Below are positions 4,632 to 60,520 of a stretch of 63,707 nucleotides of DNA, in pieces. Numbering within the stretch: position 1 is the first letter of the stretch; every line of letters begins with the position of its first letter. The DNA lies in assembly GCA_964404825.1 (NCBI GenBank), contig CAYOLQ010000009.1:1-63707 (forward strand), in the 5' to 3' direction. The notes beneath the pieces were generated by a model that worked only from the letters and a program-made list of their open reading frames with translations, searched no databases and had not been told where the DNA came from. The position numbers and the translations under genes were made by a program. Source of the stretch: an uncultured Chitinophaga sp. Its GTDB lineage: Bacteria; Bacteroidota; Bacteroidia; Bacteroidales; GCA-2748055.

Positions 4632-5081
4632 CTATTTGTTCACATAAGATAATATTCCAATAGCATCTCCCTTTTTACCCTCCTTAAAACTGATCACAAC
4701 TGTATAAGCAGCTGATTTCTGACAGGCGAAGCTGATGGATTTATATTCCTTACCGGTTTCAGGGTAATACGTGCTGAGCAGAAGATTGGCCTGATCATAA
4801 AGACGTAAAACAGCCTCTCCCTCAGAGAAATCTCCATTACAGATGCTGAAACGATAAATAATTCCTTTTCTCAGGGCAAGTGACGATCGGAAAACAGGCG
4901 GTTTTTGATTAGGTGGGGCAGCATCAAGTTTAACAACGAAATCTTTAAGATAAGTAACATCATTTCCAGCGGTAAAAGCACATTTCTGTATATCTCCCTC
5001 AAGATCCTGCCCAATGCATGTGTCAAGAGAGAAAAACACTCCTGAAAATATAAAAATACAGAGGTAAATCTTACTGATCAT
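4632..5081 (-). CDS. small secreted protein, last gene of the sensory/ABC cluster
   Basis: 149 aa. N-terminal hydrophobic signal MISKIYLCIFIFSGVFFSLDTCIGQ. Its start lies 4 nt after the stop of the ABC gene. No family recognised. Confidence 0.65.
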   Translation of the reverse strand: MISKIYLCIFIFSGVFFSLDTCIGQDLEGDIQKCAFTAGNDVTYLKDFVVKLDAAPPNQKPPVFRSSLALRKGIIYRFSICNGDFSEGEAVLRLYDQANLLLSTYYPETGKEYKSISFACQKSAAYTVVISFKEGKKGDAIGILSYVNK

Positions 5082-5084
5082 GGC

Positions 5085-8000
5085 CTATATCGTTAGTTGC
5101 TTATTTCTTATACGGGCCGTAGTTTCAACTATCCTGGACAATATCTCTTCACTGATAACTACTGTACTACTTTCCTGTTGAACAATCATCAACATTCCGT
5201 CCTTTTCAACTGCAACAGGTTCACCAAGTTCGTAGCTAATCTTAACCCCATCGAAATCGCTTTTAATCAATTCGAGATCTTTTATGAGATCTGCGAATTG
5301 TGCATCACGCTGATAGTTTTTAAGAATAAGCAATATATCATTCAAAATTACTTTTTGTTCACCAATATATTCGGCCAGGCTGTTGTCATGTTTTTCTTTT
5401 ACAACCTGCGTAGCCAGATACATGCCTTCGATCCATACGCCGGTAATCATCAGGGCACTGAGATTACTGCGATCAGTAACACGAAGGTGATCATCCATCA
5501 AATTGAAGCTGTGAACGGATAAAAACATCAGGGAATCGATATTTGAACTGGAGCTTGCTAGGCGTTTCATTGTACTGAAGTCGAAAAACTGACTTATTTT
5601 GAGCCCGTCTGCAATTTTGTTTATTGCAGCCAGATAGTTTACAGAACTCCCTGTTTTTTCATATACATTAAGATAACCAAGATCAGCTCCAAGAATACCC
5701 AGAGTATAAGCCATTTTGAAGCTGCTGCCATGGTTGTCGATGGCGTCCAGATTCGAAAGATAACGACTGGAGAATGGTGTGCCGAGATCTTTAACTACTG
5801 CAGCCATTTCGATGGGTGAGGAAATGTTTTCGATTATTTCGTTCATGGCCTGAACAGAAACCTTTAATTCGCCCTGTTCCATTTCAGAACCAGGGACAAA
5901 CAGGGTCTCCTTAGGTTTTCCTTTACAGGAAAAAGTAAATACCGCAAGGATGAGAATGAATGATATTTTATTTCTCATTTTGGATTTATAATTGACAAAT
6001 GTAATAATATTAGGGAAAAACGAAAAATGTAAGACTTTCCTTAACAAATCATAATACAAAGTAATGTAAAAGATTAGTGTGAGAAACCATATTACTGTCA
6101 TATTGAACCAATAGGTATCGAAATACTTCCCCAGGAAATGTTTGCGGGGAGCATAAAAATGGGAGCGAAAATCGATAACAGAAGATGGCTGAGGATCCAG
6201 AAAAACGGGATCAATTTTTTGAATCAGCCGATCATTGTAACTCAGGATTTTTTTTCGTTCAAAGATTTTTCTTACTTCATCAGAGACACTTTCATTTGTA
6301 TATATATCCAGCCAGGAATAGTATTGTTCCTTTCGGTTTTCAATAGCACTCCGAACCATATTATTCTTTTCTCTGTTTGCCGCAGTAAATAGTTCGAGGT
6401 AATACATATTCAGCTCAGTTAGGTATAAACTGATTTTTTCAGCAAGTTCGGGGTTGAATTTTTCAACTACAATTTCATCATAATTCAGTTTTATGGTTCC
6501 TTCAAAAACTTTTTTCTCGCTGATTAATTCATTCCGGATAGTTCTCAGGGCAGAAGCTTTTTCAATAATAACGCCATTAAGAGTATATTCCTGTTCGCAT
6601 TCGTTAAGCAGGTCCTCCAGCTCGGGAATAAAATAGGATTGTTTAAAGTCAGAATTATTGATCCTTTTTTCAATATTATATAACATCTCTTCAAAACGGT
6701 TATCCTTAAACTGATGAACCATTAAAGCCTCATACGACCATTTCGTAGGCATGAATTCAGCCAGAACAGGAACTTTATCAACTCTGGTTATATTCCGGTT
6801 CAGCTTATCGAAACTGAACATTGCCCCGCTTAGCACCATCATTGGAATTATGACCAGTGGGATTAAAATATAAATCAGTATTGCAGAATCAAAAGATGCC
6901 GAAATATTTAATCCAAGCATATTTGCATAAGCTGCAGTAGTGAAGAAAGCAAACCAGTAAACAAACAACATTCCTTTTACCTCGACAATTGTATTGGCTA
7001 CAAGCACAAATGCAAAAGCCTGTATGGCCGAGATAAAAAATAAAACAGATATTTTGGAAAGCAGATATCCTGATCTGCTGAGGTTAAGAAATTTCTCCCG
7101 CTTCAGAATTTTCCTGTCCCTGAAAATCTCTTCTGCACTTAACTGTAATCCTATAAAGAGGGCAACAATCAGTGTCATAAAAATGTAAATCGGGATGTTT
7201 TCATTCTCCCGGAAAATATATTTGTCAGATGAAGGATCTGCAACATACCTGATTATATAGGATAGAATGAATCCAAGTAACGGAGTCTCAAGCAGGGTAA
7301 GAATTACATATTGCCGGTTACTGATTTTGGATAGCAGATCCCTGGTACAATAAATTTTAAACTGGCTGAACCAGTCCGGAATCTTCAAGGTTCGCTGGGG
7401 AGAATCATGGATTTCCTCGATCGTTTCATTTTGATTCCCCTGACGGAAAGACTCCTCCCATTTCTGAGGACTCACCTTTCGGTTATGAGTATAGTTGCCA
7501 TAATCATCAACAACTCTGGCTTCAATAATATTGAAAATAATTTCAGGATTAACATTTCCGCAGGCCGGGCATTCTCCAATTTCCGAGTTAATCTGTGCAT
7601 CCATCTTCTTGAAATACATAACTCCCTCCACCGGATTTCCGCAATAAATCAGATATCCGCCTTCATCCATAATAACGACGCGATCGAACATTTTGTAGAT
7701 TTCTGAGGAGGGCTGGTGAATGACTACAAAAATAAGCTTGCCTTTCAGGGTCAGCTCTCTTAAAAGGTCCATTACATTTTCAGAATCGCGTGAAGATAAA
7801 CCCGAGGTAGGTTCATCAACAAATAATAGGGAGGGTTCCCGGATCATCTCCAGAGCAATGTTCAGACGTTTTCTTTGTCCGCCGCTGATTGTTTTATTAA
7901 ATACGGAACCAACCTTAAGTTCTTTCTTATCAATAAGCCCGAGACTCAGAAGAGTATTTTCAACTTTTATTCGTATTTCCTCATCGCTTTTATCGCTGAA

Positions 8001-9053
8001 ACAAAGCTTTGCATTATAAAACAGGTTTTCAAATACTGTAAGTTCCTCAATAAGGAGATCGTCTTGTGGAATGTAGCCGATTACTCCCGCGAGTTTTTCC
8101 TTTTCTTCAAAGATATTAATTCCGTTAAGGTGAATGGTCCCTGAAGATGGGGCATCAATTCCCGAGAGAGTATTGAGCAGAGTTGTTTTTCCTGTGCCAC
8201 TGGCTCCCATGATTCCGATAAGATCGCCGTGTGTTGCACTTATGTTGACATTTCTAAGACCGGTAAGTCCGTTTTTAAACGTATAAGAGATATCACGTGC
8301 AACAAAGGATAGTTTTTCCGTGCTCGAATCGATTAGGAAGTGCGTGGAAATGTCGCTGTAATATATAGGTTTCCCTTTGGGGAGTTTGACTGTACTGCCA
8401 CGTGCAAATAAGTAAATACGGCCGCTGTGAAGACCCAAACCGTTCAGAAAAAGATCCTGATTTCCCGTATATTTTATAAAGTAGAGGTTAACATCAGGGA
8501 TACGAAGAATTAGAATTTCCTTGTCGAGCCGTTCGGCAAGTAAATGACGTTTGTTTCCCTTGTCAGATTCCTTATCGCTGATTATGAGAATATTAATATT
8601 ATCAATGGTAGAGAAATCATTTTCCAGGACAAAAGTTTCAATTGACTTGTAATCATCAGTGGAAATCCTGAACACATCGGATACAGTGGTTATGATAGCC
8701 AGTCTTTGCCGGGTAAGCTTTTTATCTGCATAAACCAGTTCAAAGAGTCTGACAAGCACGACGATTTTCTGACTCTGGTTAAGCGTTTTATTAATTTTTT
8801 TGCAGATTCCAAGTATTCTCACTGAATCCAGCACAGAGGTAAGCCGATGACCGTTTGTATCTTCCCCGGTTTTTCTGTCATCCTGTTCAGAACTCTCCAG
8901 AAAGAGTCTGAAATACTCTTCTGTTCCCGCTTCCCCCAGCTGCTGGATTAGAAAACTTTTTACATAACTTAGCTCATTCTCCTCCACACCACCGTCCTGT
9001 TTGGTGATAATGGCGAAAAGCTGCATCAGCGCTCTTAAAATTTCTTCACTCAC
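5085..9053 (-). CDS. multidomain ABC transporter: TerB-like N-terminal region, unknown domain, ABC ATPase, ABC-2/ABCG-like permease with a large loop, and an in-frame lipoprotein-like C-terminal module
   Basis: 1322-aa uninterrupted ORF with a GTG start that overlaps the stop of the upstream gene (GTGA). Walker A GASGTGKTTLLN (codons near 8180-8215). Signature/Walker B LSGGQRKRLNIALEMIREPSLLFVDEPTSGL. About 6 TM helices follow. The last 298 aa begin MRNKISFILILAVFTFSCKG (ATG at 5978), a complete lipoprotein signal. Confidence 0.85.
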   Translation of the reverse strand: MSEEILRALMQLFAIITKQDGGVEENELSYVKSFLIQQLGEAGTEEYFRLFLESSEQDDRKTGEDTNGHRLTSVLDSVRILGICKKINKTLNQSQKIVVLVRLFELVYADKKLTRQRLAIITTVSDVFRISTDDYKSIETFVLENDFSTIDNINILIISDKESDKGNKRHLLAERLDKEILILRIPDVNLYFIKYTGNQDLFLNGLGLHSGRIYLFARGSTVKLPKGKPIYYSDISTHFLIDSSTEKLSFVARDISYTFKNGLTGLRNVNISATHGDLIGIMGASGTGKTTLLNTLSGIDAPSSGTIHLNGINIFEEKEKLAGVIGYIPQDDLLIEELTVFENLFYNAKLCFSDKSDEEIRIKVENTLLSLGLIDKKELKVGSVFNKTISGGQRKRLNIALEMIREPSLLFVDEPTSGLSSRDSENVMDLLRELTLKGKLIFVVIHQPSSEIYKMFDRVVIMDEGGYLIYCGNPVEGVMYFKKMDAQINSEIGECPACGNVNPEIIFNIIEARVVDDYGNYTHNRKVSPQKWEESFRQGNQNETIEEIHDSPQRTLKIPDWFSQFKIYCTRDLLSKISNRQYVILTLLETPLLGFILSYIIRYVADPSSDKYIFRENENIPIYIFMTLIVALFIGLQLSAEEIFRDRKILKREKFLNLSRSGYLLSKISVLFFISAIQAFAFVLVANTIVEVKGMLFVYWFAFFTTAAYANMLGLNISASFDSAILIYILIPLVIIPMMVLSGAMFSFDKLNRNITRVDKVPVLAEFMPTKWSYEALMVHQFKDNRFEEMLYNIEKRINNSDFKQSYFIPELEDLLNECEQEYTLNGVIIEKASALRTIRNELISEKKVFEGTIKLNYDEIVVEKFNPELAEKISLYLTELNMYYLELFTAANREKNNMVRSAIENRKEQYYSWLDIYTNESVSDEVRKIFERKKILSYNDRLIQKIDPVFLDPQPSSVIDFRSHFYAPRKHFLGKYFDTYWFNMTVIWFLTLIFYITLYYDLLRKVLHFSFFPNIITFVNYKSKMRNKISFILILAVFTFSCKGKPKETLFVPGSEMEQGELKVSVQAMNEIIENISSPIEMAAVVKDLGTPFSSRYLSNLDAIDNHGSSFKMAYTLGILGADLGYLNVYEKTGSSVNYLAAINKIADGLKISQFFDFSTMKRLASSSSNIDSLMFLSVHSFNLMDDHLRVTDRSNLSALMITGVWIEGMYLATQVVKEKHDNSLAEYIGEQKVILNDILLILKNYQRDAQFADLIKDLELIKSDFDGVKISYELGEPVAVEKDGMLMIVQQESSTVVISEEILSRIVETTARIRNKQLTI

Positions 9054-9430
9054 GGATGATAACTAAAATGTTTGAAAGGCACATCTACCATTTCACTGTA
9101 TTCAATTCCTGCATCGCGCATATCCTCATCATATTCAGGATAATACCAATTTACATGAACTTTCTTACCCATATCATTCATTTTTTCAAGGATTGTAAGG
9201 ATATCGAGCAGAAGTTTTGATGACGCAGTGTTAAAATAGGTAAGCTTAAATGTAAATTCTGTTTCAGAGAAAGACTCCAGGGCATACTGATTAAGCCATT
9301 CGAGAATGGGTTTGTAAAAGCTGAAAACATCCTCAGGTAAAGATTTCCCGCTTATTTCAAGTTTGCCGGTTTCGTGAACGAAATTGACTTTTGGGCTATC
9401 GTCTTTTTCTATAAAAAGTAAATTATCCAT
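9050..9430 (-). CDS. SiaC-like regulatory phosphoprotein (DUF1987 family)
   Basis: 126 aa from the ATG at 9430 (MDNLLFIEKDDSPKVNF...GKLEISGKSLPED...YFNTASSKLL...). Size and motifs fit DUF1987/SiaC. The longer track ORF (to 9541) overlaps the upstream gene and is rejected. Confidence 0.8.
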   Translation of the reverse strand: MDNLLFIEKDDSPKVNFVHETGKLEISGKSLPEDVFSFYKPILEWLNQYALESFSETEFTFKLTYFNTASSKLLLDILTILEKMNDMGKKVHVNWYYPEYDEDMRDAGIEYSEMVDVPFKHFSYHP

Positions 9431-9434
9431 TGTT

Positions 9435-10013
9435 TTATATATTTCGGGGGATTGTAGAGGTAAAAAGAAAAAATGAGTGTGACTCAGAAATGGGAAAAAA
9501 CAGAAACTCCAGGTTTTTTCCGGTCTTCCTTCGAATATCAATAAAACCTAATCCGGCACCGCCCTTATCTGATAGATGTCCTTCTTTCAGCTGCTTTTTA
9601 TAAAGTTCATCGAGTTGTTTTTTTGAAAGAGAATTTATATGGTTAAGGAGATCTGTTATGTATGGTATTCTTTCTACTTTAATAACATTGCCGGTGGTTA
9701 TGCTATATATCTGGTTATTCCGGCTGATAAGGAATATTCCATGGTTGTATTCCGAATCCTTTTCATTTTCAGGATGAACAGCGTGTTTTGAGATATTTTG
9801 TAAGCACTCCACCATAACATGGTAAACTTTTTTCTGCAGCGCCTCGGATTCATCAATTTTGGACATGTTTCCTTCAGCAAGCGTAGTAAAGGTTTTCATG
9901 ATCTGATGATTAATTTCACCTTCATACGCAAGAGTTATTTCATGCTCCTTCATACCCTTGTAGAAATCGTAAACGAAATCCAGAAATCCGCTATTTGATA
10001 AGGCTTTCGGCAT
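9435..10013 (-). CDS. SiaB-like serine/threonine protein kinase (GHKL/anti-sigma-factor-type ATPase fold)
   Basis: 192 aa. N-box-like VECLQNISKHA and G-box DKGGAGLGFIDI. Sits between a PP2C phosphatase gene and a DUF1987 gene, as in siaABC. Confidence 0.75.
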   Translation of the reverse strand: MPKALSNSGFLDFVYDFYKGMKEHEITLAYEGEINHQIMKTFTTLAEGNMSKIDESEALQKKVYHVMVECLQNISKHAVHPENEKDSEYNHGIFLISRNNQIYSITTGNVIKVERIPYITDLLNHINSLSKKQLDELYKKQLKEGHLSDKGGAGLGFIDIRRKTGKNLEFLFFPISESHSFFLFTSTIPRNI

Positions 10014-10243
10014 TAATAATAATTTTTATATTGAATTTAAATTTATCAGAATTATACAACTGAAATTCCGGTTTAAAAAAATATGTGCCAATTATAAATT
10101 TGCATTGTTTAAGAGCAGTTCATATTATAGGTCAGAGTGATTCTGATTCAATTGAAAACATTGCCCGATAGCAAATCTGATTGAATTACTTTTCAATATT
10201 AACGCCAATTTACATTAAAATTTATTATGAGAGCCGGAAATCA

Positions 10244-12865: not shown

Positions 12866-13623
12866 ATTTTTTCGTTGTTCAGAACCGAGTGTATTTTTTC
12901 TCCCCCTTCACGCATAAGCCTGTTAAGCATATAAAACCGACTTTCTTCAATTTCTTTAAAGCAGGAAATCTCTATAAGTGCCAGTGATTTTTTTTCATGA
13001 ACCAGAGGGATCAGGTACAGTATGCGCGCTTTTCCTTTTCCAAGACCCGATATAACCTGAAAATACGATTCCGGAAGATTATTAATTACAATCACTTTAT
13101 TATCCATGCAGGCCTGACCATTAATTCCCTCTCCTTCCTGAAATCCTTGATGTGGATTTTCAAAAGCACAGGCATAAGATGCTGTCAGTGTATATTTACT
13201 TTCCTGAGGATCAGCAATGAAAAACATTCCCTGGACAATTTCAAATTCCTCTGCCAGATTTTTAAGTAAACGGTCGCCGATTCTCGCTAAAACAGTGCTG
13301 CTGAAAACTCCTTTTAAAAGGTCGGCATCAGAATCTTTCGCGCTGAATGTCTGAACCGGATCTTCATTATTCTCACTTTTGGGACCTTCGGGAACATTGG
13401 TTTTTGAATACGATAACTTTTTTAACTCTGAAGAAAGGCTATTAAACTTAAAATATAGAACCAGGAGTGACAGCAGAGAAAGAAGTAAGAATGCAAGAGA
13501 AACAAAAAATTTATTTTTCCCTGAAAGAAATGAATTCCAGGCCAGTATAAACGCAGCTATCATAGCTGCAGCTGTGAGCAGAAAAAGAAAATATTCCCTG
13601 ATGTCTGATTTCTTTATTAGCAA
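12862..13623 (-). CDS. membrane-anchored stand-alone GAF-domain protein
   Basis: 253 aa with a TTG start at 13623. Two N-terminal TM helices, then a GAF-like fold (LLKNLAEEFEIVQGMFFIADPQE...LIPLVHEKKSLALIEISCF) paralogous to the GAF of both large sensors. Confidence 0.7.
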   Translation of the reverse strand: MLIKKSDIREYFLFLLTAAAMIAAFILAWNSFLSGKNKFFVSLAFLLLSLLSLLVLYFKFNSLSSELKKLSYSKTNVPEGPKSENNEDPVQTFSAKDSDADLLKGVFSSTVLARIGDRLLKNLAEEFEIVQGMFFIADPQESKYTLTASYACAFENPHQGFQEGEGINGQACMDNKVIVINNLPESYFQVISGLGKGKARILYLIPLVHEKKSLALIEISCFKEIEESRFYMLNRLMREGGEKIHSVLNNEKI

Positions 13624-13631
13624 TGGTTTAT

Positions 13632-14186
13632 TTATAAGTTTTTTATAAAATTAATTATTTTGTCGGCATCAAGGATATAATCCGGATGAAACATATTTAT
13701 ACATGCTTCAGGCATGGTTCCAATCTCACAAAATTTTGGATCCTCAACAATGGTAATTCCCCCTTCCTTCTTAATCTTGTACATACCTTTTGCTCCGTCC
13801 ATGTTTGCTCCTGAAAGCAATACTCCTACAGCTTTATTCCCGAAGACTTCACCTGCTGTATCAAAAGTGATATCAAGAGAAGGTCGGGAATGGTTTACAG
13901 GTTCACTTATGGATAGGGAAAAGCGGTTTGAATGTTCGAGCATAAGATGGTAATTTGACGGTGCAAGATATACTCTTCCTTTCCTGATGGGTTCCTTATC
14001 ATCCGGTTCACGTATTATTAATCTGGAGTTAATCTGCAATGCTTCTGCAAATCCAGATCTTACAGTTCTTAATCGGTGAAGACATAACACAATAGGGTGA
14101 GCATAACCTTCTGGCAGGTTACTTAGCAGTTGATTCACGGTTTTAAAACTTCCTGCTGATCCTCCTATAATAATTATCTTTTCCAG
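13632..14186 (-). CDS. cheB: CheB-type protein-glutamate methylesterase catalytic domain (no receiver domain); start codon unresolved
   Basis: Catalytic-triad context: GGSAGS (Ser codon 14157-14159), CLHRL (His), RPSLDITFDT (Asp). The track start (GTG 14138) lies downstream of the Ser. The frame is open up to the TAA at 14190-14192. CTG 14184-14186 is used here only as a nominal start. Confidence 0.75.
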   Translation of the reverse strand: MEKIIIIGGSAGSFKTVNQLLSNLPEGYAHPIVLCLHRLRTVRSGFAEALQINSRLIIREPDDKEPIRKGRVYLAPSNYHLMLEHSNRFSLSISEPVNHSRPSLDITFDTAGEVFGNKAVGVLLSGANMDGAKGMYKIKKEGGITIVEDPKFCEIGTMPEACINMFHPDYILDADKIINFIKNL

Positions 14187-14189
14187 AAA

Positions 14190-15017
14190 TTATGTTTTAA
14201 TTTTTCTAAATATTTTTTCGGAACTGTTATATACTGTAAGATTTTTTTTGTTGTCGATATAATCATCAAGATTGTCTTTTATTCCGGTAATTAAAAATCC
14301 ACCTTCATCGATAATGGAAATCAATTGATCAAGAACTTTTTCTTTATGCTCAGGAGTATAAACCAGAAGATTATTTCTGAAGAAGAGCAAATTTGTGTGT
14401 GAAGGCACTGACTCAAAATTCAGATTTTGTGTGAAAAAATTAACATTCTTTAATAGGGAATGATCAATTGCGTAGTCCTTACCATTTTTTTTAATGTACC
14501 GGTAAATATCATTTTCCGGAAATATCTTTTCAAAGTTTTCAATACTTGTTTCGATTTGTCTGAGGGGAATAATACCTCCGGATAATCTGGATATTGTTTT
14601 TTCGGCTATACATGAAATTCCGGCTTCAAAAGTCAGTTTCGGGAAAACTATCTGAAGTAAAATCAGAAAGGAAAAAAGATCCTGTCCGTTGCTGGCACCT
14701 GGAAACCAAATCTGTGGTTTGTTAAAGGATATGAGAAGTTCTGGAATTACGTCAAAGCTGATAACTTTCCAGGTTTCGGGATCCCTGAAAAGCTCAATAT
14801 GCGTATCGGTTATTTCAAAGAGGAATTCATCAAAAAAATCATCATCTTCAAGGATTCTTGAAGAAAGAAGTCCGGGGTACTTCAGATGATGCAGCATTAT
14901 TGAGTTATCCAGAGCAAACCGAAATGCCATTGGCGAGTACTGACTGAAATCGTAGCCAAACTTTTGTTGTATTTCCCGTATAATTTTTCTCGTTTCAACA
15001 ATTCCTATTTCAGGCAT
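14190..15017 (-). CDS. CheR-like methyltransferase paralogue with a degenerate SAM-binding motif
   Basis: CheR N-domain motif IELFRDPETW is present. The canonical W-x-AGCSTG-E motif reads IWFPGASNGQD. Start taken at the ATG at 15017 (MPEIGIVETRK). The longer track ORF (to 15083) would overlap the upstream gene by 56 nt. Confidence 0.7.
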   Translation of the reverse strand: MPEIGIVETRKIIREIQQKFGYDFSQYSPMAFRFALDNSIMLHHLKYPGLLSSRILEDDDFFDEFLFEITDTHIELFRDPETWKVISFDVIPELLISFNKPQIWFPGASNGQDLFSFLILLQIVFPKLTFEAGISCIAEKTISRLSGGIIPLRQIETSIENFEKIFPENDIYRYIKKNGKDYAIDHSLLKNVNFFTQNLNFESVPSHTNLLFFRNNLLVYTPEHKEKVLDQLISIIDEGGFLITGIKDNLDDYIDNKKNLTVYNSSEKIFRKIKT

Positions 15018-15027
15018 ATCAGTTGTT

Positions 15028-17676
15028 TTACGGTTCATGCAGTTGTTGCCTGAGTCTGTCAATTTCTTTATTGGCATCCTCAAGTAACTGGTATTTTAGC
15101 TTTTTCTCAGTAATGTCGTGAGCAAGAAAATAAACCTTATAGATTTCTCCTTCTTCATTTTTTACAGGAGAAAAGGTTGCCATAAGCCAAACTTCTTCAC
15201 CAGTTGGTTTTGTTCTGCGAATTACTCCGGAATAGGTTTTATCTTTAGTAATCTCTGACCAGATTTTTTCAAATTGCTGTTTCTCAGTATCTTTAAGGAA
15301 TAATCTGATATTTTTACCGAGTACTTCCTTTCCCGAGTATCCGGTTGTTTCTATGTAATTCGCATTGACATCAGCAATGATTCCTTCAACTGATAATTCA
15401 CATTTAATTATAGATGCATCAACAGCATTGCTTAATGATTCCATTTCAATACTGCTTCTTCTTATCTCATTGGCCTGGTTTTCGAGTGATTCCTGTTGTT
15501 TTTTATCTTGCGTAATGTCATGTGCAATATTCAGAATTTTATAGGGTTTTCCTGTTCGATCAAGAATAGGAGTATAGGTTTGATTGAGCCAGATTTCATT
15601 CCCGTTAAAAAGTCTGAAATGTTCTGTCTGACTAATGGTCTCACCATCCTTTAATTTTTTCCAGAATTCTTTATACTCATTCGAGTATTTATCCACTACT
15701 GAGAAGTCGCTATGATGTTTTCCGACAACCTGTTCTCTGGATGATTCCATCAGAAAGAGAAATTTTTCGTTCACATCTGCAAAACGTCCGTTAATACTAT
15801 ATTCGGCTACAAGTGAAGAGGAATTTACAGCATTCAGGATACCGGTTATCTCTGTTTCTTTTCGAAGAGATTCTTCCTGAGCATCACGAAGTTCCTGAAC
15901 ATTCCTGACCATTTTCTCTTCCTGTCTGGCCATTTCCTCGGCCTGTTTTCGCGACTTTTCAAGCAGGCTGATGGTTTTTTCATTAATCCTCACGGCAGCA
16001 AGGGTATTTGCAATACTTTCTCCCAGTTGTTCAACAAATCCTGTTTCATGTGGTTCAAGTATTCTGAATGATGCTATCTCCAGGATACCAAAGAGCTCAT
16101 TTTCCAGTTTGAGCGGTACGATTAAAATACAACGAGGCTGAGCTTGCCCGATCCCTGAAGAAATTTCAAAATAGTTCTTCGGAATATCCGTCAGGTACAT
16201 GATTTCTTTTTCAAGTGCACAGGTACCTATAAGCCCTTCCCCATATAGAATTCTTCGGGAAATATATTTGCGCCTGTCGTATGCAAATGCGGCAACCATG
16301 TCTATAACGGGACTGGATTCTTCCTGATTATTAAGATAAATTGCCCCCTGATCGGCATTAATATATTTCACAAGGTTTTTAATTACTTTAAAAGCCAATT
16401 CTTCAAGATTTTCCCTTTCCGAACGGAAAATCTCCCCAAAACTTGCTATCCCTTCGCTAAGCCATCTTCGCTTCTCCTCCTGGGTTTTATGAATAATATC
16501 CTCATGCTCTGCTTCTCTTAAACGTTGCGCCATTTTCAATAGAGAATTTCCAAGTACATCATCAGCTCCCAACGGCTTAAAATCTTCCCGGATATTTAAC
16601 TCACCGATTTTATCAGCAAATCTTATTTTGTGGTTAAGACTTTCAACATGATCATTAAGGTTTTCAGCCATTTCATTTAGATCGTCAGATGAATTCAGGT
16701 TAAGCTTCTCCGGAACCTTACCAGATTTTAATTCCCTCAGAAAATGCTTTAATTGTGAAACAGATTGATAAATGTTAACAAATGATCTGTAAAAAGCCGC
16801 TATACAGAATCCCCCGAAAAAAAGAACAATCCAAATAAACCGGTTAATGACCTTCGCTGATCCCTTCGTATATATCTTCTCTGATTCCTTTTCAAGGTTT
16901 ACTGCAATATCACTGATCTGGAGAACATTAAAATTGATTTGTGCCCGCAAGCCGGCAGATTCATTATTCCCTGCCTTTCTGTATAAGGTGAGCAGGGATT
17001 CAGTATTATCGAAAAAGCTGTTCAGTATAAGTTCATTTTCAATTCCCGCTGCGTTCACCGGAAAAGAAAGACTTCTTTCGGATTCATAATAATCAATAAG
17101 TTTTTCAAGTTGAGTGGGATCCCGGTTTATGAGAAAACTCATTGCAATACCAGAAAGCTTTTCAATAAATACTGCAGCTCTCGGGGAAAGTGCGTTTTTG
17201 TTGATATTCAGGATAGATTGAAGCCTTGTATACCATTGATTTAACAAACCAGTTCCAAGATCTCCTCTCTCATAGATTAAGCCTGTAAATTCAGTACAAA
17301 GTTGTTTTACATCCTTAACATTTTCCTCCGCATCCTTAATGCTTCGCTGAAGCGTAAGATTATCTGAAACAAGTTTGCCAGCACTCAGACTGGATAATTT
17401 TGTATTAAGCCTGATGCAGACTTCTTCGATCCCATCGTTACTGACCTTTCCGGAGCTCCCACTCTCCAGATTACCAAACTGGCTTTTCAGATTTGCCGCT
17501 TCCAGAAAAAGTATTGAAGCTTCATGCCTTAGTTTTGCTATATCCTGGCGACCCTGATCATATGCCATAATGTTGTTTACGCGGTCCACCAGCATCAGGG
17601 AACATACAAACCAGAATATTACTGATAAACAGATTAGTAAAATGAACCGGGATCTCAATGTCGGTGCGGGTATCAT
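15028..17676 (-). CDS. MCP-like transmembrane sensor (TM, helical ectodomain, TM, HAMP) carrying GAF-PAS-PAS in place of an MCP signalling domain; no output domain
   Basis: 882 aa. TM1 at about aa 10-30, a roughly 250-aa helical extracytoplasmic region, TM2 (FIWIVLFFGGFCIAAFY), a HAMP-like segment, GAF (VIKNLVKYINADQGAIYL...), an E/Q-rich coiled coil and two PAS repeats ending ...AHDITQDKK and ...AHDITEKK. ATGA overlap with cheR. Confidence 0.85.
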   Translation of the reverse strand: MIPAPTLRSRFILLICLSVIFWFVCSLMLVDRVNNIMAYDQGRQDIAKLRHEASILFLEAANLKSQFGNLESGSSGKVSNDGIEEVCIRLNTKLSSLSAGKLVSDNLTLQRSIKDAEENVKDVKQLCTEFTGLIYERGDLGTGLLNQWYTRLQSILNINKNALSPRAAVFIEKLSGIAMSFLINRDPTQLEKLIDYYESERSLSFPVNAAGIENELILNSFFDNTESLLTLYRKAGNNESAGLRAQINFNVLQISDIAVNLEKESEKIYTKGSAKVINRFIWIVLFFGGFCIAAFYRSFVNIYQSVSQLKHFLRELKSGKVPEKLNLNSSDDLNEMAENLNDHVESLNHKIRFADKIGELNIREDFKPLGADDVLGNSLLKMAQRLREAEHEDIIHKTQEEKRRWLSEGIASFGEIFRSERENLEELAFKVIKNLVKYINADQGAIYLNNQEESSPVIDMVAAFAYDRRKYISRRILYGEGLIGTCALEKEIMYLTDIPKNYFEISSGIGQAQPRCILIVPLKLENELFGILEIASFRILEPHETGFVEQLGESIANTLAAVRINEKTISLLEKSRKQAEEMARQEEKMVRNVQELRDAQEESLRKETEITGILNAVNSSSLVAEYSINGRFADVNEKFLFLMESSREQVVGKHHSDFSVVDKYSNEYKEFWKKLKDGETISQTEHFRLFNGNEIWLNQTYTPILDRTGKPYKILNIAHDITQDKKQQESLENQANEIRRSSIEMESLSNAVDASIIKCELSVEGIIADVNANYIETTGYSGKEVLGKNIRLFLKDTEKQQFEKIWSEITKDKTYSGVIRRTKPTGEEVWLMATFSPVKNEEGEIYKVYFLAHDITEKKLKYQLLEDANKEIDRLRQQLHEP

Positions 17677-18539
17677 TTACGAATTGGGTTTTTAAAATAC
17701 ACCTGATTTTTTTTCACGAACTGAGTTGAATAGGGCCCTATGATGCTCTCATGAACACCTAACACAAGACATCCGTCGCTACTAAGATTCTTGTAAAACA
17801 AATTAAATACTTTGTTCTGCAAATCACTATTGAAATAGATGATTACATTTCTGCATATTATCAAATCAAATTTAATCGCAAACAAATTTTCGTCCTTAAC
17901 TAGATCAATCTTTTTAAAAACCGGTTTCTCAGTCAGAAACTTTTTCATCTGAATCAAATCCCTGGCTTTATCAACGATAAAATAATTTTCATGAAGGTGT
18001 TGTTTTTTTTCCTCACTGGGATCCTTTTCAGGAAAAATTACGGTATCCAGATTATCTATATAGGCTTGATTAAACCTGTATTTGTACTTTCCGGTTTTTG
18101 CGAGATCCAATACATCTGAGTTTATATCACTGGCAAAAATTTCAGCTTTTGATAGCATGTTTAACTGGTCAAGAAGAATCATCATTGAGTATACTTCCTG
18201 TCCCGTTGAACAGCCTGCGTGCCAGATACGCATACTTTTCCTGCCGGAAAATTTAGGCAGAATTTCATCCCTGAGGTTAATCCAGATGGAGGGGTCGCGA
18301 AAAAGTTCAGTAGTATTTACAGTAATGCTCATTACTACTTTTTCCATAAATTGAGGATTAGAAAAAATAGTATCTTCTAATTGACTAATCGACAACTTAC
18401 TATCAGACAGTATTTTAGAGATCCTTCGTTTCAGTGATTTAAGGGAATAGTTTGTGAAGTCATAATTAGAGCGATCCCTGAATACTTCAAGAAAAGCTAT
18501 AATTTCCTCATCCTTAATTTCCTGATCAGTAGGACTCAT
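17673..18539 (-). CDS. cheR: CheR-type protein-glutamate O-methyltransferase
   Basis: 288 aa. Canonical TELFRDPSIW and IWHAGCSTGQEVYS motifs, and ...IICRNVIIYF.... Confidence 0.9.
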   Translation of the reverse strand: MSPTDQEIKDEEIIAFLEVFRDRSNYDFTNYSLKSLKRRISKILSDSKLSISQLEDTIFSNPQFMEKVVMSITVNTTELFRDPSIWINLRDEILPKFSGRKSMRIWHAGCSTGQEVYSMMILLDQLNMLSKAEIFASDINSDVLDLAKTGKYKYRFNQAYIDNLDTVIFPEKDPSEEKKQHLHENYFIVDKARDLIQMKKFLTEKPVFKKIDLVKDENLFAIKFDLIICRNVIIYFNSDLQNKVFNLFYKNLSSDGCLVLGVHESIIGPYSTQFVKKNQVYFKNPIRK

Positions 18540-19589: not shown

Positions 19590-20246
19590 TTAGCTCTTGA
19601 TGGCTCTGTATAAAATACTTTCTCCCAAATAAACTATTTCCATCTCCCCAATAGAAATCAGCTTTACAAGAATATCCGATGCTTTTTTACGATTTAACAA
19701 TGCCAGTTTGCAGAAATCCTCCAAACTGATTGTTGTATTTTTACTGAGGTAGTCAAGTAATTTTTTTTCTGTTTCAGTAAATGGAAGAAACACACCTTTT
19801 TTTCGATTTTCGATTTTCCAGACTCGCAGTTGTATCGCATTTACAAGAAAATTTTCATCACAAACCCTGATATAAGCAAGCCATTTTCCCTCAGGTGATT
19901 TTGCCAGGTAGGGTTTTTCATCACCTTTGGGGATATCAACCTCCAGAATTGTCTTGCCGTCAATAAGCCATTTGCGTGCTTTAAATTTTATTTCTGGTTT
20001 ACAAAATAATCCTGCAGCTGAATCGATCATGTAAATTTCTTCCTCACTTCTGATTCCCGCGATTTTCCCGTTATCTTTTACACCAATGAGTAACTTTCCT
20101 CCAAATGAATTTGAAAAGGCTACCAGAGTTTTTGCGATTTTACGAACATCACTGATTTCAAATTTGAAATCCTGTCGCAAGTGTTCCCCTTCTTCAATTA
20201 ATTTCTGAATATAGCTGCTCACCTTGATTTTTGTTATTGAGAACAA
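19590..20246 (-). CDS. AlbA_2/Schlafen-type putative DNA-binding domain protein with a C-terminal wHTH-like region
   Basis: 218 aa. E..LEFK-like core (EGEHLRQDFKFEISD...IAKTLVAFSNSFGGKLLIGVKDNGKIAGI) is typical of the divergent AAA_4/AlbA_2 family. Confidence 0.6.
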   Translation of the reverse strand: MFSITKIKVSSYIQKLIEEGEHLRQDFKFEISDVRKIAKTLVAFSNSFGGKLLIGVKDNGKIAGIRSEEEIYMIDSAAGLFCKPEIKFKARKWLIDGKTILEVDIPKGDEKPYLAKSPEGKWLAYIRVCDENFLVNAIQLRVWKIENRKKGVFLPFTETEKKLLDYLSKNTTISLEDFCKLALLNRKKASDILVKLISIGEMEIVYLGESILYRAIKS

Positions 20247-27672: not shown

Positions 27673-27683
27673 ACTTATTAAGG

Positions 27684-27757
27684 TGGAGATAAGGGGTTTC
27701 GAACCCCTGACCTTGTGGCTGCCAGCCACACGCTCTAGCCAACTGAGCTATATCCCC
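27684..27757 (-). tRNA. tRNA-Ala (anticodon GGC)
   Basis: 74-nt cloverleaf folded by hand: GGGGATA-TA-GCTC-AGTTGGCTA-GAGC-G-TGTGG-CTGGCAG-CCACA-AGGTC-AGGGG-TTCGAAA-CCCCT-TATCTCC-A. The G3:U70 wobble pair, the Ala identity element, is present. CCA is not encoded. Confidence 0.95.
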
Positions 27758-28055
27758 TTTAAAGAATGCCAAAAGTAAGAGTTTTTTGGATATCTCCCAA
27801 GAAATCAGAAAAAATCCAAAAGTTTCTGGTCGCAAGGATAGAAAACGCTTTTTTAACAAATACAGGGTCTATTTACTTTGTAAAATAGTGAAGTTTGGTT
27901 TAATATTTGCATTCTGCATATATATAGGTTAACCAAAAAGTTCCCGGCACCTGCCGATTAACTCTCATTATGATCGAATCCTGAGGTAAGATCCTCAGAA
28001 TTTGTTTCAATCATACACAGCAAGCAAAATTCTATTAATCACAAAACCTATTGCC

Positions 28056-28733: not shown

Positions 28734-29034
28734 TTACAAGGGAAACCGGTTAATTCTATATGAAGGGATTAGAAAAGTTGTTGAAAAGGGATAATCCGGA
28801 AAAACTGAAGTTGCGAAAATACTATTTATACTGATTATTATTTTTAAAAAAAGGGAAGGTGCAATGCATAAATTATCAATATAAAATGCAGATAATTAAC
28901 AGAATAGAATAAATAGCATTTCGTTTTTAATCAATGAGGTAAAGATTATCCCGCATATTTGAAAATCAACTTGAAAAATTCTTTTGAAATTAATCATATA
29001 ATTTACTATTTTTAGACCCGCAAAATCAAATACC

Positions 29035-48337: not shown

Positions 48338-48410
48338 TATCCAGTGATTTAAATGTAAAATTAAATTTCTTTTCCATATGACAAATAAAAAAAAAGTTTA
48401 ATTTTGTTCA

Positions 48411-60409: not shown

Positions 60410-60520
60410 TACTAATGATTTAAATATTTCTCAGGAATAATTCCATTGGAAATGACAGGACCGGCCGGATAAGAATTGAAAATACAGGTAACTGGAATCC
60501 CCGCAAAACAGAGAATCCAT

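What the first reader, a model, noticed from the sequence alone, without database searches (positions are those of the whole stretch)
4632..18539. Ten-gene operon joining CheR/CheB, GAF-PAS sensors, a SiaABC-like partner switch and an atypical ABC transporter
All ten ORFs lie on the minus strand. Their junctions are overlapping or nearly touching: ATGA at 17673-17676 and 12862-12865, GTGA at 9050-9053, and gaps of 3-10 nt elsewhere. The only real gap is 10014-10243. The order is cheR, an MCP-like HAMP-GAF-PAS-PAS sensor, a degenerate cheR, cheB, TM-GAF, TM-GAF-PAS-PAS-PP2C, a SiaB-like kinase, a SiaC-like protein, a TerB-ABC-permease-lipoprotein fusion, and a small secreted protein. None of the usual outputs of these modules is present: no CheA/CheW/CheY, MCP signalling domain, histidine kinase, diguanylate cyclase, sigma or anti-sigma factor, or DNA-binding domain. 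The only plausible effector is the transporter. A methylation-adapted sensor feeding a Ser/Thr partner switch that gates an ABC exporter is not, to my knowledge, a described pathway.
Basis: partly seen in the sequence, partly recalled or inferred. Interest (0 to 1): 0.8.

Follow-up and report, generated by a model that had tools for sequence, protein, structure and literature searches.

The report
Conserved methylation–phosphoswitch–ABC exporter gene cassette
This is a real, tightly packed gene cassette found in hundreds of Bacteroidales species that joins chemotaxis-type methylation enzymes, GAF/PAS sensors and a SiaABC-type phosphorylation switch to an ABCG-like exporter, a wiring I found described in no paper, though each part belongs to a known family.

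Summary
All ORFs, junctions and domain calls are in the sequence. The linkage is not unique: in 80 species-representative Bacteroidales genomes the same genes sit in the same order on one strand. Where enough flank exists, each gene is present in 96-100% of loci.

The phosphatase, kinase and phosphoprotein are true homologues of Pseudomonas SiaA, SiaB and SiaC, and the acceptor threonine is kept. SiaB-SiaC-ABC-lipoprotein-small protein behaves as a fixed output block. The input varies:
- CheR/CheB plus GAF sensors in most loci;
- a receiver-PAS-PP2C phosphatase in one;
- a TPR-PP2C phosphatase in one;
- a complete MCP/CheW/CheY/CheB/CheA/CheR pathway in one.

Corrections:
- The extra sensor between the two cheR genes is accessory.
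- The lipoprotein is a separate gene in every relative outside this species.
- cheB needs a non-ATG start to keep its catalytic serine.
- A methylated sensor feeding a PP2C partner switch is already known (Bacillus cereus RsbK/RsbM/RsbY).

Best model (inferred): CheR/CheB modify a conserved EExxAT coiled coil after the GAF domain. The phosphatase and kinase set the SiaC state, and SiaC acts on the exporter's TerB/FHA-like N-terminus. New variant of a known kind.

The parts
17673..18539 (-). cheR1: CheR-type protein-glutamate methyltransferase, motifs intact
   Evidence: Pfam CheR E 2e-36. Matches B. subtilis CheR 5FTW at E 2.5e-25. IWHAGCSTGQEVYS, FASD(I/L)N and CRNVIIYFN are conserved in 55 orthologues. 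Present in 52/54 assessable loci.
15028..17676 (-). Accessory membrane sensor: N-terminal hydrophobic segments, weak HAMP, GAF, E/Q-rich coiled coil, two PAS, no output domain
   Evidence: Pfam. Found between the two cheR genes in 36 loci and absent in 16. Orthologue conservation.
15859..15918 (-). Post-GAF coiled coil of the accessory sensor (about aa 587-606). Orthologue consensus is QEEEMRQNMEEL(K/Q)ATQEES
   Evidence: [EQ][EQ]xx[AG][ST] is present at this position in 30/39 orthologues. The window's own copy (QELRDAQEES) misses the strict pattern.
14190..15017 (-). cheR2: diverged CheR paralogue, probably not a normal SAM-dependent enzyme
   Evidence: Pfam CheR E 1e-14. In the alignment to 5FTW, the Asp of the conserved (T/S)DI stretch that follows the Gly-rich motif is Cys here and Ser in the orthologue consensus. 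Overall conservation is low. The gene is nevertheless kept in 57/59 loci. It is absent in the more distant cassettes L096 and L097.
13632..14186 (-). cheB: methylesterase catalytic domain only (no receiver domain), with a probable non-ATG (CTG) start
   Evidence: Matches T. maritima CheB 3SFT at E 1.5e-34 over aa 3-178. The Ser (GGSAGS), His (CLHRL) and Asp (NMDGA) positions align with those of CheB 1CHD. Start-codon analysis. Present in 58/60 loci.
12862..13623 (-). Small membrane protein with a C-terminal GAF domain
   Evidence: Pfam GAF_2 E 8.5e-7. Two hydrophobic segments by inspection. Present in 61/62 loci.
10244..12865 (-). SiaA-like sensor phosphatase: membrane segments, GAF, coiled coil, two PAS, PP2C
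   Evidence: Its only PDB sequence match is P. aeruginosa SiaA PP2C 6K4E, E 1.2e-34. NCBIfam SiaA E 1e-47, but below the equivalog cut-off. The motifs RDVVSGDF, DCTGHG, RDGMD, FSDGxxDQ and DDV are near-invariant in 61 orthologues. Present in 62/63 loci.
11798..11860 (-). Candidate methyl-accepting heptads in the GAF-PAS linker (aa 336-356: NAEEMKATQEQLRKSNEQLEA)
   Evidence: The receptor-methylation-type pattern [EQ][EQ]xx[AG][ST] is conserved at aa 338 in 44/61 orthologues. It is one of only two conserved occurrences in all 11 cassette proteins. Background is 1 hit in 17,438 residues of window ORFs. It is also present in the distant L096 and absent from variant phosphatases that lack the receiver-less CheR/CheB set.
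10014..10243 (.). 230-nt intergenic gap between the phosphatase and siaB-like genes
   Evidence: The median gap in relatives is 36 nt. The long gap recurs in the same species. No Rfam match. RNA folding z = -0.06. No TAnnTTTG motif.
9435..10013 (-). SiaB-family protein kinase (DUF6272)
   Evidence: NCBIfam SiaB_fam_kinase 153.8 bits against a cut-off of 85. Matches the 181-residue chain A of 6KKO over its full length, E 4.9e-7; I take that chain to be SiaB from its length and co-crystal partner, although the file labels it 'Putative serine phosphatase'. VMVECLQNISKHA and GGAGLGFIDI are conserved. Present in 68/68 loci.
9050..9430 (-). SiaC-family phosphoprotein (DUF1987)
   Evidence: Pfam SiaC E 1e-39. 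Matches P. aeruginosa SiaC 6KKO_C at E 1.1e-14. Present in 73/74 loci.
9227..9229 (-). Codon for Thr68 of SiaC, the predicted phospho-acceptor
   Evidence: It aligns without gaps to chain residue 69 of 6KKO_C, which I take to be the phospho-acceptor Thr68 of P. aeruginosa SiaC (identity of the site from my own knowledge). YFNTASSKLLLDIL is essentially invariant in 75 orthologues. NTAS is kept in distant variants.
6027..9053 (-). ABCG-type half transporter: TerB-like bundle, FHA-like beta domain, nucleotide-binding domain, ABC-2 membrane domain, helical domain, one further hydrophobic segment
   Evidence: Pfam. Matches ABCG1 7FDV at E 2e-39 over aa 260-751. Walker A, signature, Walker B and H-loop are invariant. 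About 1020 aa in all relatives.
8379..9053 (-). N-terminal regulatory module of the transporter: TerB-like helices (aa 1-143) plus small beta domain (aa 155-225)
   Evidence: AlphaFold2 mean pLDDT 84. The top Foldseek PDB matches to the beta domain are all FHA domains (probability about 1.0, TM 0.45-0.54 on the target, rmsd 2.6-2.9 A), but E is only 0.017-0.15. No Pfam FHA hit. The module occurs in 395 clusters (50% identity) at E<=1e-10. In nearly all of the 150 listed it begins at the protein's first residue; the full-length members are about 1000 aa.
5979..6026 (-). Junction where the transporter's stop codon and part of the intergenic region are missing, giving the 1322-aa ORF
   Evidence: Compared by eye with L001, which has a longer tail, a TAG stop and a ~75-nt spacer; the automatic alignment of this stretch is unreliable. 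The read-through is reproduced in independent assemblies.
5996..6003 (-). TACATTTG, a match to the Bacteroidota -7 promoter consensus TAnnTTTG, 25 nt before the lipoprotein ATG
   Evidence: The same motif lies within 60 nt upstream of the lipoprotein gene in 37/76 relatives, mostly 30-38 nt upstream, against 1-17% for the other cassette genes. The consensus itself is from my own knowledge.
5085..5978 (-). Lipoprotein of unknown fold (signal peptide, Cys18), a separate gene in relatives
   Evidence: 2146 homologues, none with a Pfam domain or a name. Present in 74/74 loci. AlphaFold2 pLDDT 79: helical bundle plus a small sheet. No PDB fold match.
4632..5081 (-). Small secreted protein with conserved cysteines, family unknown
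   Evidence: No Pfam hit. Present in 70/70 loci. Conservation. A homologue is present in L093.

Best explanation
The region is a conserved signalling-plus-export cassette of Bacteroidales. It has a variable input half and a fixed output half.

Output half:
- A SiaB-family kinase phosphorylates SiaC on Thr68, and the SiaA-like PP2C phosphatase removes the phosphate.
- By analogy with Pseudomonas, the unphosphorylated SiaC binds and switches its neighbour. Here the neighbour is not a diguanylate cyclase but an ABCG-type exporter with a TerB-like plus FHA-like N-terminal module.
- The exporter works with a lipoprotein and a small secreted protein.

Input half in this window:
- The phosphatase is itself the sensor (membrane segments, GAF, two PAS).
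- An active CheR and a receiver-less CheB methylate and demethylate glutamates in the conserved EExxAT heptads of the coiled coil after the GAF domain. This tunes phosphatase output without CheA.
- The small GAF protein, the second CheR-like protein and, where present, the extra GAF-PAS sensor are accessory parts of this sensory complex.

Shown: gene content, order, conservation, homology and intact motifs. Inferred: who methylates what, that SiaC contacts the transporter, the direction of control, and the exported substrate (unknown; ABCG relatives move lipids, pigments or drugs).
For: 1. Conservation. In 80 species-representative genomes the genes keep the same order and strand: CheR1 52/54, CheR2 57/59, CheB 58/60, GAF 61/62, PP2C 62/63, SiaB 68/68, SiaC 73/74, lipoprotein 74/74, small protein 70/70. 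Median gaps are 3-67 nt.
2. Homology to the characterised Sia switch. PP2C matches 6K4E at E 1e-34. The kinase scores above the NCBIfam SiaB-family cut-off and matches chain A of the 6KKO complex. SiaC matches at E 1e-14 with the acceptor Thr aligned and invariant.
3. Modularity. The block SiaB-SiaC-ABC-lipoprotein-small protein is kept while the input changes: TPR-PP2C in L047; REC-CheB plus REC-PAS-PP2C in L083; a full MCP/CheW/CheY/CheB/CheA/CheR pathway with a PP2C-SiaB fusion in L093; dCache-HAMP-GAF-PAS-PP2C in L097. A Che-type input recurs in front of this output in different forms.
4. Published proposal that DUF1987 proteins modulate the adjacent protein (PMC8457831).
5. The transporter has a dedicated N-terminal non-transport module with an FHA-like fold. 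An FHA-bearing ABC transporter regulated by Ser/Thr phosphorylation is known: Rv1747 (PMC3138270).
6. Methylation target. The receptor-type pattern occurs at only two conserved places in 11 proteins, both in the post-GAF coiled coil. CheR-type methylation of the signalling helix after a GAF domain has an experimental precedent in RsbK/RsbM (PMC4574943).
7. CheR1 motifs and the CheB Ser/His/Asp positions are intact.
Against: - No experiment or transcript data exist, and every mechanistic step is by analogy.
- The FHA-like match is weak by E-value (0.017 or worse). There is no Pfam FHA hit, and the usual phosphothreonine-binding Arg/Ser/His pattern is not evident.
- The strict methylation pattern is missing in 17/61 phosphatase orthologues and in the window's own accessory sensor. 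It is also missing from the bona fide MCP of L093, so it is neither necessary nor specific.
- L047 has the kinase and transporter but no detectable SiaC gene.
- More distant members of the transporter family (29-38% identity in the N-terminal module) stand alone without Sia genes.
- The survey sample is the 80 closest relatives, so it is biased towards one clade.
- In this species the cassette shows oddities (no ATG for cheB, lost ABC stop codon, 230-nt gap). Its closest relative L001 has lost the phosphatase and the small GAF gene.
Confidence: 0.45

Rival explanations
1. The transporter is an input or co-sensor rather than the output. Its transport activity or conformation would be reported through the TerB/FHA-like module to SiaB/SiaC, as Bce-type ABC transporters report to their kinases. 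The real target of SiaC would be encoded elsewhere.
For: Sequence cannot give the direction of information flow. No enzyme or DNA-binding output lies in the cassette. L047 keeps the kinase and transporter without a SiaC gene, which suggests the kinase-transporter link can exist without SiaC.
Against: The phosphatase already carries rich sensor domains, and the input side varies while the transporter block is fixed. That is the pattern expected of an output. The characterised SiaC acts on the protein encoded next to it (PMC8457831).
Confidence: 0.2
2. Two or three neighbouring but separately working units. A CheR/CheB-sensor-phosphatase unit, a SiaB/SiaC unit and a transporter-lipoprotein unit stay adjacent by ancestry, with separate promoters and partly separate functions.
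For: There is a 230-nt gap before siaB in the window. A promoter-like TAnnTTTG lies before the lipoprotein gene in 37/76 loci and before siaB in 9/71. Input modules are exchangeable.
Against: Order and strand are kept in 96-100% of assessable loci. The phosphatase-siaB gap is 36 nt at the median and SiaC-ABC 40 nt. A PP2C without its kinase and substrate, or the reverse, has no known function. In L093 the PP2C and SiaB are fused into one protein.
Confidence: 0.12
3. CheR/CheB here serve ordinary chemoreceptors encoded elsewhere in the genome and are only neighbours of the Sia-ABC genes.
For: The rest of the genome could not be searched. L093 and L083 show that classical Che components do occur next to this output block.
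Against: CheB lacks the receiver domain that couples it to CheA. No MCP, CheA or CheW lies in the 63.7-kb window. CheR-CheR-CheB sit within 3-20 nt of the GAF/phosphatase genes in more than 50 species.
Confidence: 0.05
4. In this particular species the cassette is decaying and partly non-functional, even if it works in relatives.
For: cheB has no ATG/GTG/TTG start upstream of its catalytic serine. The transporter has lost its stop codon and reads into the lipoprotein signal peptide. The gap before siaB is unusually long. The closest relative L001 lacks the phosphatase and the small GAF gene.
Against: All reading frames are open and all catalytic motifs intact. The same structure is found in at least four independent assemblies. 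The catalytic motif upstream of the GTG start is also kept in frame, without an ATG, in L001, which argues that this stretch is translated. The promoter-like motif and the ATG of the lipoprotein gene are retained inside the read-through ORF.
Confidence: 0.15

Closest known systems
SiaABCD of Pseudomonas aeruginosa (threonine partner switch controlling the diguanylate cyclase SiaD)
   Same: A PP2C phosphatase homologous to SiaA, a SiaB-family kinase and a SiaC/DUF1987 phosphoprotein with the acceptor Thr conserved, encoded in that order and followed directly by the presumed target (PMC8457831).
   Different: There is no SiaD or any GGDEF protein; the next gene is an ABCG-type transporter. The phosphatase has GAF and two PAS domains where I recall SiaA having a HAMP domain (not checked here). 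CheR, a CheR-like protein, CheB and a GAF protein are added upstream. Scores are below the NCBIfam equivalog cut-offs for SiaA and SiaC.
RsbK-RsbM-RsbY-RsbV/RsbW-sigmaB of Bacillus cereus
   Same: A non-MCP membrane sensor with HAMP, GAF and a signalling helix is methylated on that helix by an operon-encoded methyltransferase, and the signal ends in a PP2C phosphatase acting on a partner switch (PMC4574943). That RsbM is CheR-type is from my own knowledge. The candidate site here is in the same place, right after the GAF domain.
   Different: RsbK is a histidine kinase that reaches the PP2C through a receiver domain; here the PP2C is fused to the sensor. RsbM has no paired esterase; here a CheB is always present. 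The switch proteins there are STAS/RsbW-type and the output is a sigma factor; here they are SiaC/SiaB-type and the linked gene is a transporter.
Chemosensory pathways with non-motility outputs (for example Wsp of Pseudomonas, from my own knowledge)
   Same: CheR and CheB are encoded beside a sensor whose output is not flagellar. The relative L093 has a complete MCP/CheW/CheY/CheB/CheA/CheR set in front of the same output block.
   Different: The window has no MCP signalling domain, CheA, CheW or CheY, and its CheB has no receiver domain.
Rv1747 of Mycobacterium tuberculosis (FHA-domain ABC exporter regulated by the kinase PknF)
   Same: An ABC exporter carrying an N-terminal non-transport regulatory module (canonical FHA domains in Rv1747, an FHA-like fold here), encoded next to Ser/Thr phospho-signalling genes (PMC3138270). 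That Rv1747 has an ABC-2-type membrane domain in the same domain order is my own recollection.
   Different: Rv1747 has two canonical FHA domains that bind phosphothreonine within the transporter itself. Here there is one small non-canonical FHA-like domain plus a TerB-like bundle, and the phosphorylated species is expected to be a separate protein, SiaC.

Membership tests
SiaABC-type partner switch | PP2C phosphatase homologous to SiaA | tested here: met
   Its only PDB sequence hit is SiaA PP2C 6K4E, E 1.2e-34. PP2C metal-site motifs are conserved in 61 orthologues.
SiaABC-type partner switch | SiaB-family kinase | tested here: met
   NCBIfam NF038262 153.8 bits against cut-off 85. Full-length match to chain A of 6KKO, taken to be SiaB.
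SiaABC-type partner switch | SiaC/DUF1987 protein with the acceptor threonine | tested here: met
   Pfam PF09345 135 bits against cut-off 24.5. Thr68 aligns with the P. aeruginosa site and is invariant in 75 orthologues.
SiaABCD system proper (orthologues of the Pseudomonas genes) | Diguanylate cyclase SiaD as partner; equivalog-level scores for SiaA and SiaC | tested here: not met
   No GGDEF domain in the cassette. SiaA model 162.8 against 700 bits; SiaC model 83.4 against 150 bits.
SiaABC-type partner switch | Phosphorylation and dephosphorylation of SiaC; phospho-dependent partner binding | not testable with these tools
   Needs biochemistry.
Chemosensory (Che) pathway | CheA kinase, CheW adaptor, and a receptor with an MCP signalling domain | tested here: not met
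   None in the cassette or among the scanned ORFs of the window. They are present in the relative L093. The rest of the genome was not searchable.
Chemosensory (Che) pathway | CheR methyltransferase with SAM-binding motifs | tested here: met
   Met for CheR1. CheR2 lacks the Asp of the conserved (T/S)DI stretch that follows the Gly-rich motif.
Chemosensory (Che) pathway | CheB methylesterase with Ser-His-Asp triad and N-terminal receiver domain | tested here: inconclusive
   The triad positions are conserved if translation starts at the CTG at 14186. There is no receiver domain.
Methylatable signalling-helix sensors (RsbK/RsbM type) | GAF domain followed by a coiled-coil signalling helix, with a CheR-type methyltransferase in the same operon | tested here: met
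   Domain order and the conserved E/Q-rich linker. Precedent.
Methylatable signalling-helix sensors (RsbK/RsbM type) | Demonstrated methylation of the helix | not testable with these tools
   Only a consensus-pattern match.
ABCG-like / ABC-2 exporters | Nucleotide-binding domain before an ABC-2 membrane domain; Walker A, signature, Walker B, H-loop | tested here: met
   Pfam ABC_tran and ABC2_membrane. ABCG1 match over both domains, E 2e-39. Motifs invariant.
FHA domain | FHA fold | tested here: inconclusive
   The top Foldseek hits are all FHA domains with high probability, but E is 0.017-0.15 and they cover about 75 residues.
FHA domain | Sequence-profile match and canonical phosphothreonine-binding Arg, Ser, His, Asn | tested here: not met
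   No Pfam FHA hit even at E<=10. Only an invariant Asn-Gly is recognisable among the conserved residues.
TerB domain | Pfam PF05099 above gathering score | tested here: met
   33.2 bits (36.9 for the isolated N-terminus) against cut-off 24.4. The helical bundle in the model also matches the P. gingivalis protein of unknown function PG1108, 2H5N.
Operon (single transcription unit) | Same strand, short or overlapping junctions, conserved order | tested here: met
Operon (single transcription unit) | Co-transcription | not testable with these tools
   No transcript data. A promoter-like motif before the lipoprotein gene hints at an internal promoter.

The most novel reading that the evidence does not exclude
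A CheA-independent adaptation system in which CheR and a receiver-less CheB act directly on the signalling helix of a SiaA-type phosphatase. The phospho-state of SiaC then gates an ABCG-type exporter through its TerB/FHA-like N-terminus. To my knowledge this would be the first partner switch shown to control a transporter, and the first methylation-adapted Ser/Thr phosphatase.
Probability: 0.33. Interest if true: 0.75.

Novelty: new variant of a known kind. Interest (0 to 1): 0.62.

Why it matters
Partner switches of the Sia type are known only from Pseudomonas, where they control a cyclic-di-GMP synthase and biofilm formation. CheR/CheB are almost always discussed with chemoreceptors and CheA. 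This cassette is present in at least 575 species-level genomes, mostly uncultured Bacteroidales.

If the model is right, it matters in three ways:
- It extends SiaC-type switching to the control of membrane export.
- It gives a natural system for studying methylation-based tuning of a phosphatase.
- It assigns a working hypothesis to several families with no function: DUF6272, the 297-aa lipoprotein, the 149-aa secreted protein and the TerB/FHA-like ABC transporters.

The series from a full Che pathway (L093) through a receiver-phosphatase (L083) to the CheA-less form in this window also offers a way to study how chemosensory pathways are simplified and rewired.

Tried and rejected
- Lipoprotein: no Pfam or NCBIfam family, no PDB sequence match and no PDB fold match despite a fair model.
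- 149-aa protein: no Pfam family.
- Sigma-70-type promoter and terminator scan of the cassette: counts equal to shuffled controls, so uninformative.
- The 230-nt gap: no Rfam family, no stable RNA fold, no Bacteroidota -7 motif.
- FHA by sequence profile: no hit; only the fold comparison suggests it.
- Literature: no paper mentions DUF6272. Searches combining CheR/CheB, PP2C, SiaC, partner switching, ABC transporter and Bacteroidetes found nothing on this cassette. One search on 'CheBR' returned only unrelated words.
- I considered that the 1322-aa fusion or the short cheB might be assembly errors. I rejected this because at least four independent assemblies from different samples give the same structure.
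I rejected it as the obligatory target because 16 complete cassettes lack it.
- I recalled that CheB-CheR-PAS-kinase fusion proteins carry similar EELQS-type heptads. I could not check this here, so it remains a lead only.

Full report
**1. The observation**

The ORF table shows an unbroken run of minus-strand ORFs from 18539 down to 4632. There are 4-nt overlaps at 17673-17676, 12862-12865 and 9050-9053, and one long gap at 10014-10243.

Pfam confirms the domain calls:
- CheR.
- GAF plus two PAS, with only a weak HAMP hit.
- A second, weaker CheR.
- CheB_methylest without a receiver domain.
- GAF alone.
- GAF-PAS-PAS-SpoIIE.
- DUF6272.
- SiaC.
- TerB-ABC_tran-ABC2_membrane.
- Nothing for the last protein.

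No CheA, CheW, CheY, MCP signalling domain, histidine kinase, GGDEF, sigma or DNA-binding domain is present in the cassette. The other window ORFs that I scanned encode housekeeping enzymes, TonB-type proteins and type IX secretion cargo, but no che genes.

**2. Three corrections to the gene models**

- **cheR2.** Orthologues start at the equivalent of the ATG at 15017, not the TTG at 15083.
- **cheB.** Read from the GTG at 14138, it starts after the catalytic serine. The peptide LEKIIIIGGSAGSF is encoded in frame directly after the cheR2 stop. Relatives begin MYKAxxIGGSAGSF, and the window has CTG where they have ATG. With that extension the protein matches Thermotoga CheB at E 1.5e-34, and the Ser, His and Asp positions align with those of the Salmonella CheB domain 1CHD. 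The 82%-identical relative L001 also has no ATG yet keeps the motif, so the stretch is probably translated.
- **The 1322-aa 'TerB-ABC-permease-lipoprotein fusion'.** This is an open reading frame in the sequence, and at least three other assemblies give the same 1322-aa ORF. Every homologue outside this species is about 1020 aa, and the lipoprotein is a separate ~297-aa gene after a median gap of 67 nt. Comparison with L001 by eye shows that the window has lost the transporter's last ~20 codons, its stop codon and part of the spacer. The lipoprotein's ATG and a TACATTTG motif 25 nt upstream are retained. This motif matches the Bacteroidota -7 promoter consensus, which I know from the literature and did not test here. 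It lies upstream of the lipoprotein gene in 37 of 76 relatives, against 1-17% for the other genes. Separate expression of the lipoprotein is therefore plausible. If so, the 'operon' may have an internal promoter.

**3. Is the linkage conserved?**

I aligned transporter homologues and scanned one genome per species of GTDB. At least 575 genomes encode a relative, and the best 80 loci were returned. Nearly all are Bacteroidales metagenome-assembled genomes with 55-64% identity.

A tblastn matrix with the window's proteins shows the same genes in the same order and strand. Counts are for loci with enough flank:

| Gene | Present / assessable |
|---|---|
| CheR1 | 52/54 |
| CheR2 | 57/59 |
| CheB | 58/60 |
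| small GAF protein | 61/62 |
| phosphatase | 62/63 |
| SiaB-like | 68/68 |
| SiaC | 73/74 |
| lipoprotein | 74/74 |
| small secreted protein | 70/70 |

Median intergenic distances are 3-67 nt. The phosphatase-siaB gap is 36 nt at the median, so the 230-nt gap is peculiar to this species. The extra GAF-PAS sensor between the two cheR genes is present in 36 loci and absent in 16. The downstream convergent gene and purD are also syntenic in the relatives I looked at (L001, L004, L086), whereas the gene upstream of cheR1 differs between them. This sets the cassette's boundaries.

**4. What the parts are**

- **Phosphatase.** Its only match in the PDB is the PP2C domain of Pseudomonas SiaA, at E 1.2e-34.
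- **Kinase.** The DUF6272 protein scores above NCBI's cut-off for the SiaB kinase family. It also matches the 181-residue chain A of the 6KKO complex over its whole length; I take that chain to be SiaB, although the file labels it a putative serine phosphatase.
- **SiaC.** The protein matches Pseudomonas SiaC at E 1e-14. Thr68 aligns with the position I take to be the known phospho-acceptor, and the motif YFNTASSKLLLDIL is essentially invariant in 75 orthologues.
- **Catalytic motifs.** The PP2C metal-site motifs and the kinase's N- and G-box-like motifs are conserved.
- **CheR1 and CheR2.** CheR1 keeps the conserved CheR sequence motifs. CheR2 has Cys (Ser in the orthologue consensus) where B. 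subtilis CheR has the Asp of its conserved TDI stretch, and it is poorly conserved, yet the gene is retained.
- **Transporter.** It is ABCG-like: nucleotide-binding domain first, then an ABC-2 membrane domain, matching ABCG1 at E 2e-39 with canonical ATPase motifs.
- **Transporter N-terminus.** An AlphaFold2 model of the first 263 residues (pLDDT 84) shows a TerB-like helical bundle followed by a small beta domain. Its best PDB fold matches are all FHA domains. The E-values are weak (0.017-0.15), there is no Pfam FHA hit and the usual phosphothreonine-binding residues are not evident. This module occurs in about 395 clusters (50% identity). In nearly all of the 150 listed it begins at the protein's first residue, and the full-length members are about 1000 aa.
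- **Lipoprotein and 149-aa protein.** Neither has a family assignment, and the lipoprotein has no fold match.

**5. Variants that reveal the logic**

The block SiaB-SiaC-ABC-lipoprotein-small protein is constant while the input changes.

| Locus | Input in front of the constant block |
|---|---|
| L047 | TPR-PP2C phosphatase; no CheR/CheB (and no SiaC ORF seen) |
| L083 | Classical receiver-CheB and a receiver-PAS-PP2C |
| L093 | PAS-HAMP-MCP receptor, CheW, CheY, receiver-CheB, CheA, CheR, then a PP2C-SiaB fusion. SiaC, the transporter and homologues of both accessory proteins follow (E 2e-61 and 6e-13) |
| L096 | One CheR, receiver-less CheB, GAF protein and a long sensor phosphatase |
| L097 | As L096, with a dCache-HAMP periplasmic sensor on the phosphatase |

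Transporters with only 29-38% identity in the N-terminal module stand alone. So the transporter block behaves as an output with exchangeable inputs. Che-type inputs recur, and the window's CheA-less arrangement looks like a reduced form.

**6. Where might CheR/CheB act?**

The target has to be something conserved in all cassettes. I searched all 11 protein families for the receptor-methylation-type pattern [EQ][EQ]xx[AG][ST]. Only two conserved occurrences exist:
- aa 338 of the phosphatase (NAEEMRATQEEL, 44/61 orthologues);
- aa 594 of the accessory sensor (NMEELKATQEES, 30/39 orthologues).

Both lie in the coiled coil that follows the GAF domain. The background in the window's ORFs of 200 aa or more is one hit in 17,438 residues. 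The distant L096 phosphatase keeps the motif. The phosphatases of L047, L083 and L093, which lack the receiver-less CheR/CheB set, do not have it.

There is an experimental precedent. In Bacillus cereus the methyltransferase RsbM methylates the signalling helix after the GAF domain of the sensor RsbK. RsbK acts through the PP2C RsbY on the RsbV/RsbW partner switch (PMC4574943).

Caveats:
- The pattern is absent from a quarter of orthologues, from the window's own accessory sensor and from the L093 receptor.
- The whole linker is conserved, so the pattern may be conserved for structural reasons.

**7. Model and rivals**

The best-supported reading has four steps:
1. The phosphatase senses through its GAF/PAS domains.
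2. CheR1 and CheB tune it by reversible methylation of the post-GAF helix.
3. The phosphatase and the SiaB-like kinase set the phosphorylation state of SiaC.
4. SiaC, probably in its unphosphorylated form as in Pseudomonas (PMC8457831), binds the transporter's N-terminal module and changes export.

The regulatory idea resembles Rv1747, an ABC exporter with FHA domains controlled by Ser/Thr phosphorylation (PMC3138270). Only homology, conservation and architecture are shown; the contacts, the direction and the substrate are inferred.

Rivals:
- The transporter is a co-sensor and SiaC acts elsewhere.
- The genes form adjacent but separate units.
- CheR/CheB serve receptors elsewhere in the genome.
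- The cassette is decaying in this species. Supporting this, the closest relative L001 has lost the phosphatase and GAF genes.

**8. Novelty**

I found no paper on DUF6272 or on this cassette. All components belong to known families, and two of the three conceptual links have precedents: a methylated sensor feeding a PP2C switch, and a phospho-regulated ABC exporter carrying FHA domains. The combination appears undescribed, namely SiaC-type switching next to a transporter, and CheR/CheB with a phosphatase and without CheA. I rate it a new variant of a known kind, of moderate to high interest because it is so widespread and so consistently organised.

Noticed in passing
window 13632-14192: cheB has no ATG/GTG/TTG start upstream of its catalytic serine motif. 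The codon matching the orthologues' ATG is CTG (14184-14186), three nucleotides after the cheR2 stop. The related species L001 shows the same situation.
   Followed up: yes
window 5979-6026: A short deletion relative to L001 removes the ABC transporter's stop codon, so it reads in frame into the lipoprotein signal peptide. This is reproducible in independent assemblies of the same species. Topology arguments suggest the fused product would misplace the lipoprotein domain.
   Followed up: partly
window 5996-6003; loci L006-L085: TAnnTTTG, the Bacteroidota -7 promoter consensus, lies mostly 30-38 nt upstream of the lipoprotein gene in 37 of 76 relatives. It is rare before the other cassette genes, which hints at an internal promoter.
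   Followed up: partly
L001 6469-14521: The closest relative (82% identical transporter) has cheR, cheR2, cheB, siaB, siaC, ABC, lipoprotein and the small protein. It lacks the small GAF gene and the SiaA-like phosphatase.
   Followed up: no
L093 3-13431: A complete chemosensory gene set (MCP, CheW, CheY, REC-CheB, CheA, an unknown 207-aa protein, CheR) lies directly upstream of a PP2C-DUF6272 fusion protein, SiaC and the transporter block.
   Followed up: partly
L047 6711-14567: A TPR-PP2C phosphatase and a SiaB-like kinase precede the transporter block, with no SiaC ORF between kinase and transporter and no CheR/CheB.
   Followed up: no
window 48399-48626 (+): A cobalamin riboswitch (82.7 bits) lies just upstream of a gene for a protein with a type IX secretion sorting tail. 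That gene is followed by a TonB-dependent receptor (Plug domain) and a DUF5074 protein.
   Followed up: no
window 60508-60643 (-): A molybdenum-cofactor riboswitch (57.5 bits) lies upstream of a TauE/SafE-type permease. Further downstream on the same strand are MoeA, a radical-SAM MoaA-like gene and a MOSC/MoCF gene.
   Followed up: no
window 27682-27757 (-): tRNA-Ala (anticodon GGC), the only tRNA gene in the window.
   Followed up: no
window 28002-29718 (+): Two neighbouring genes each encode a protein with a TonB C-terminal domain.
   Followed up: no
window 19590-20246 (-) and 23622-24449 (-): A Schlafen AlbA_2-domain protein lies close to the cassette's upstream end. Further on is an AraC-type HTH fused to a methylguanine-DNA methyltransferase domain (Ada-like).
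   Followed up: no
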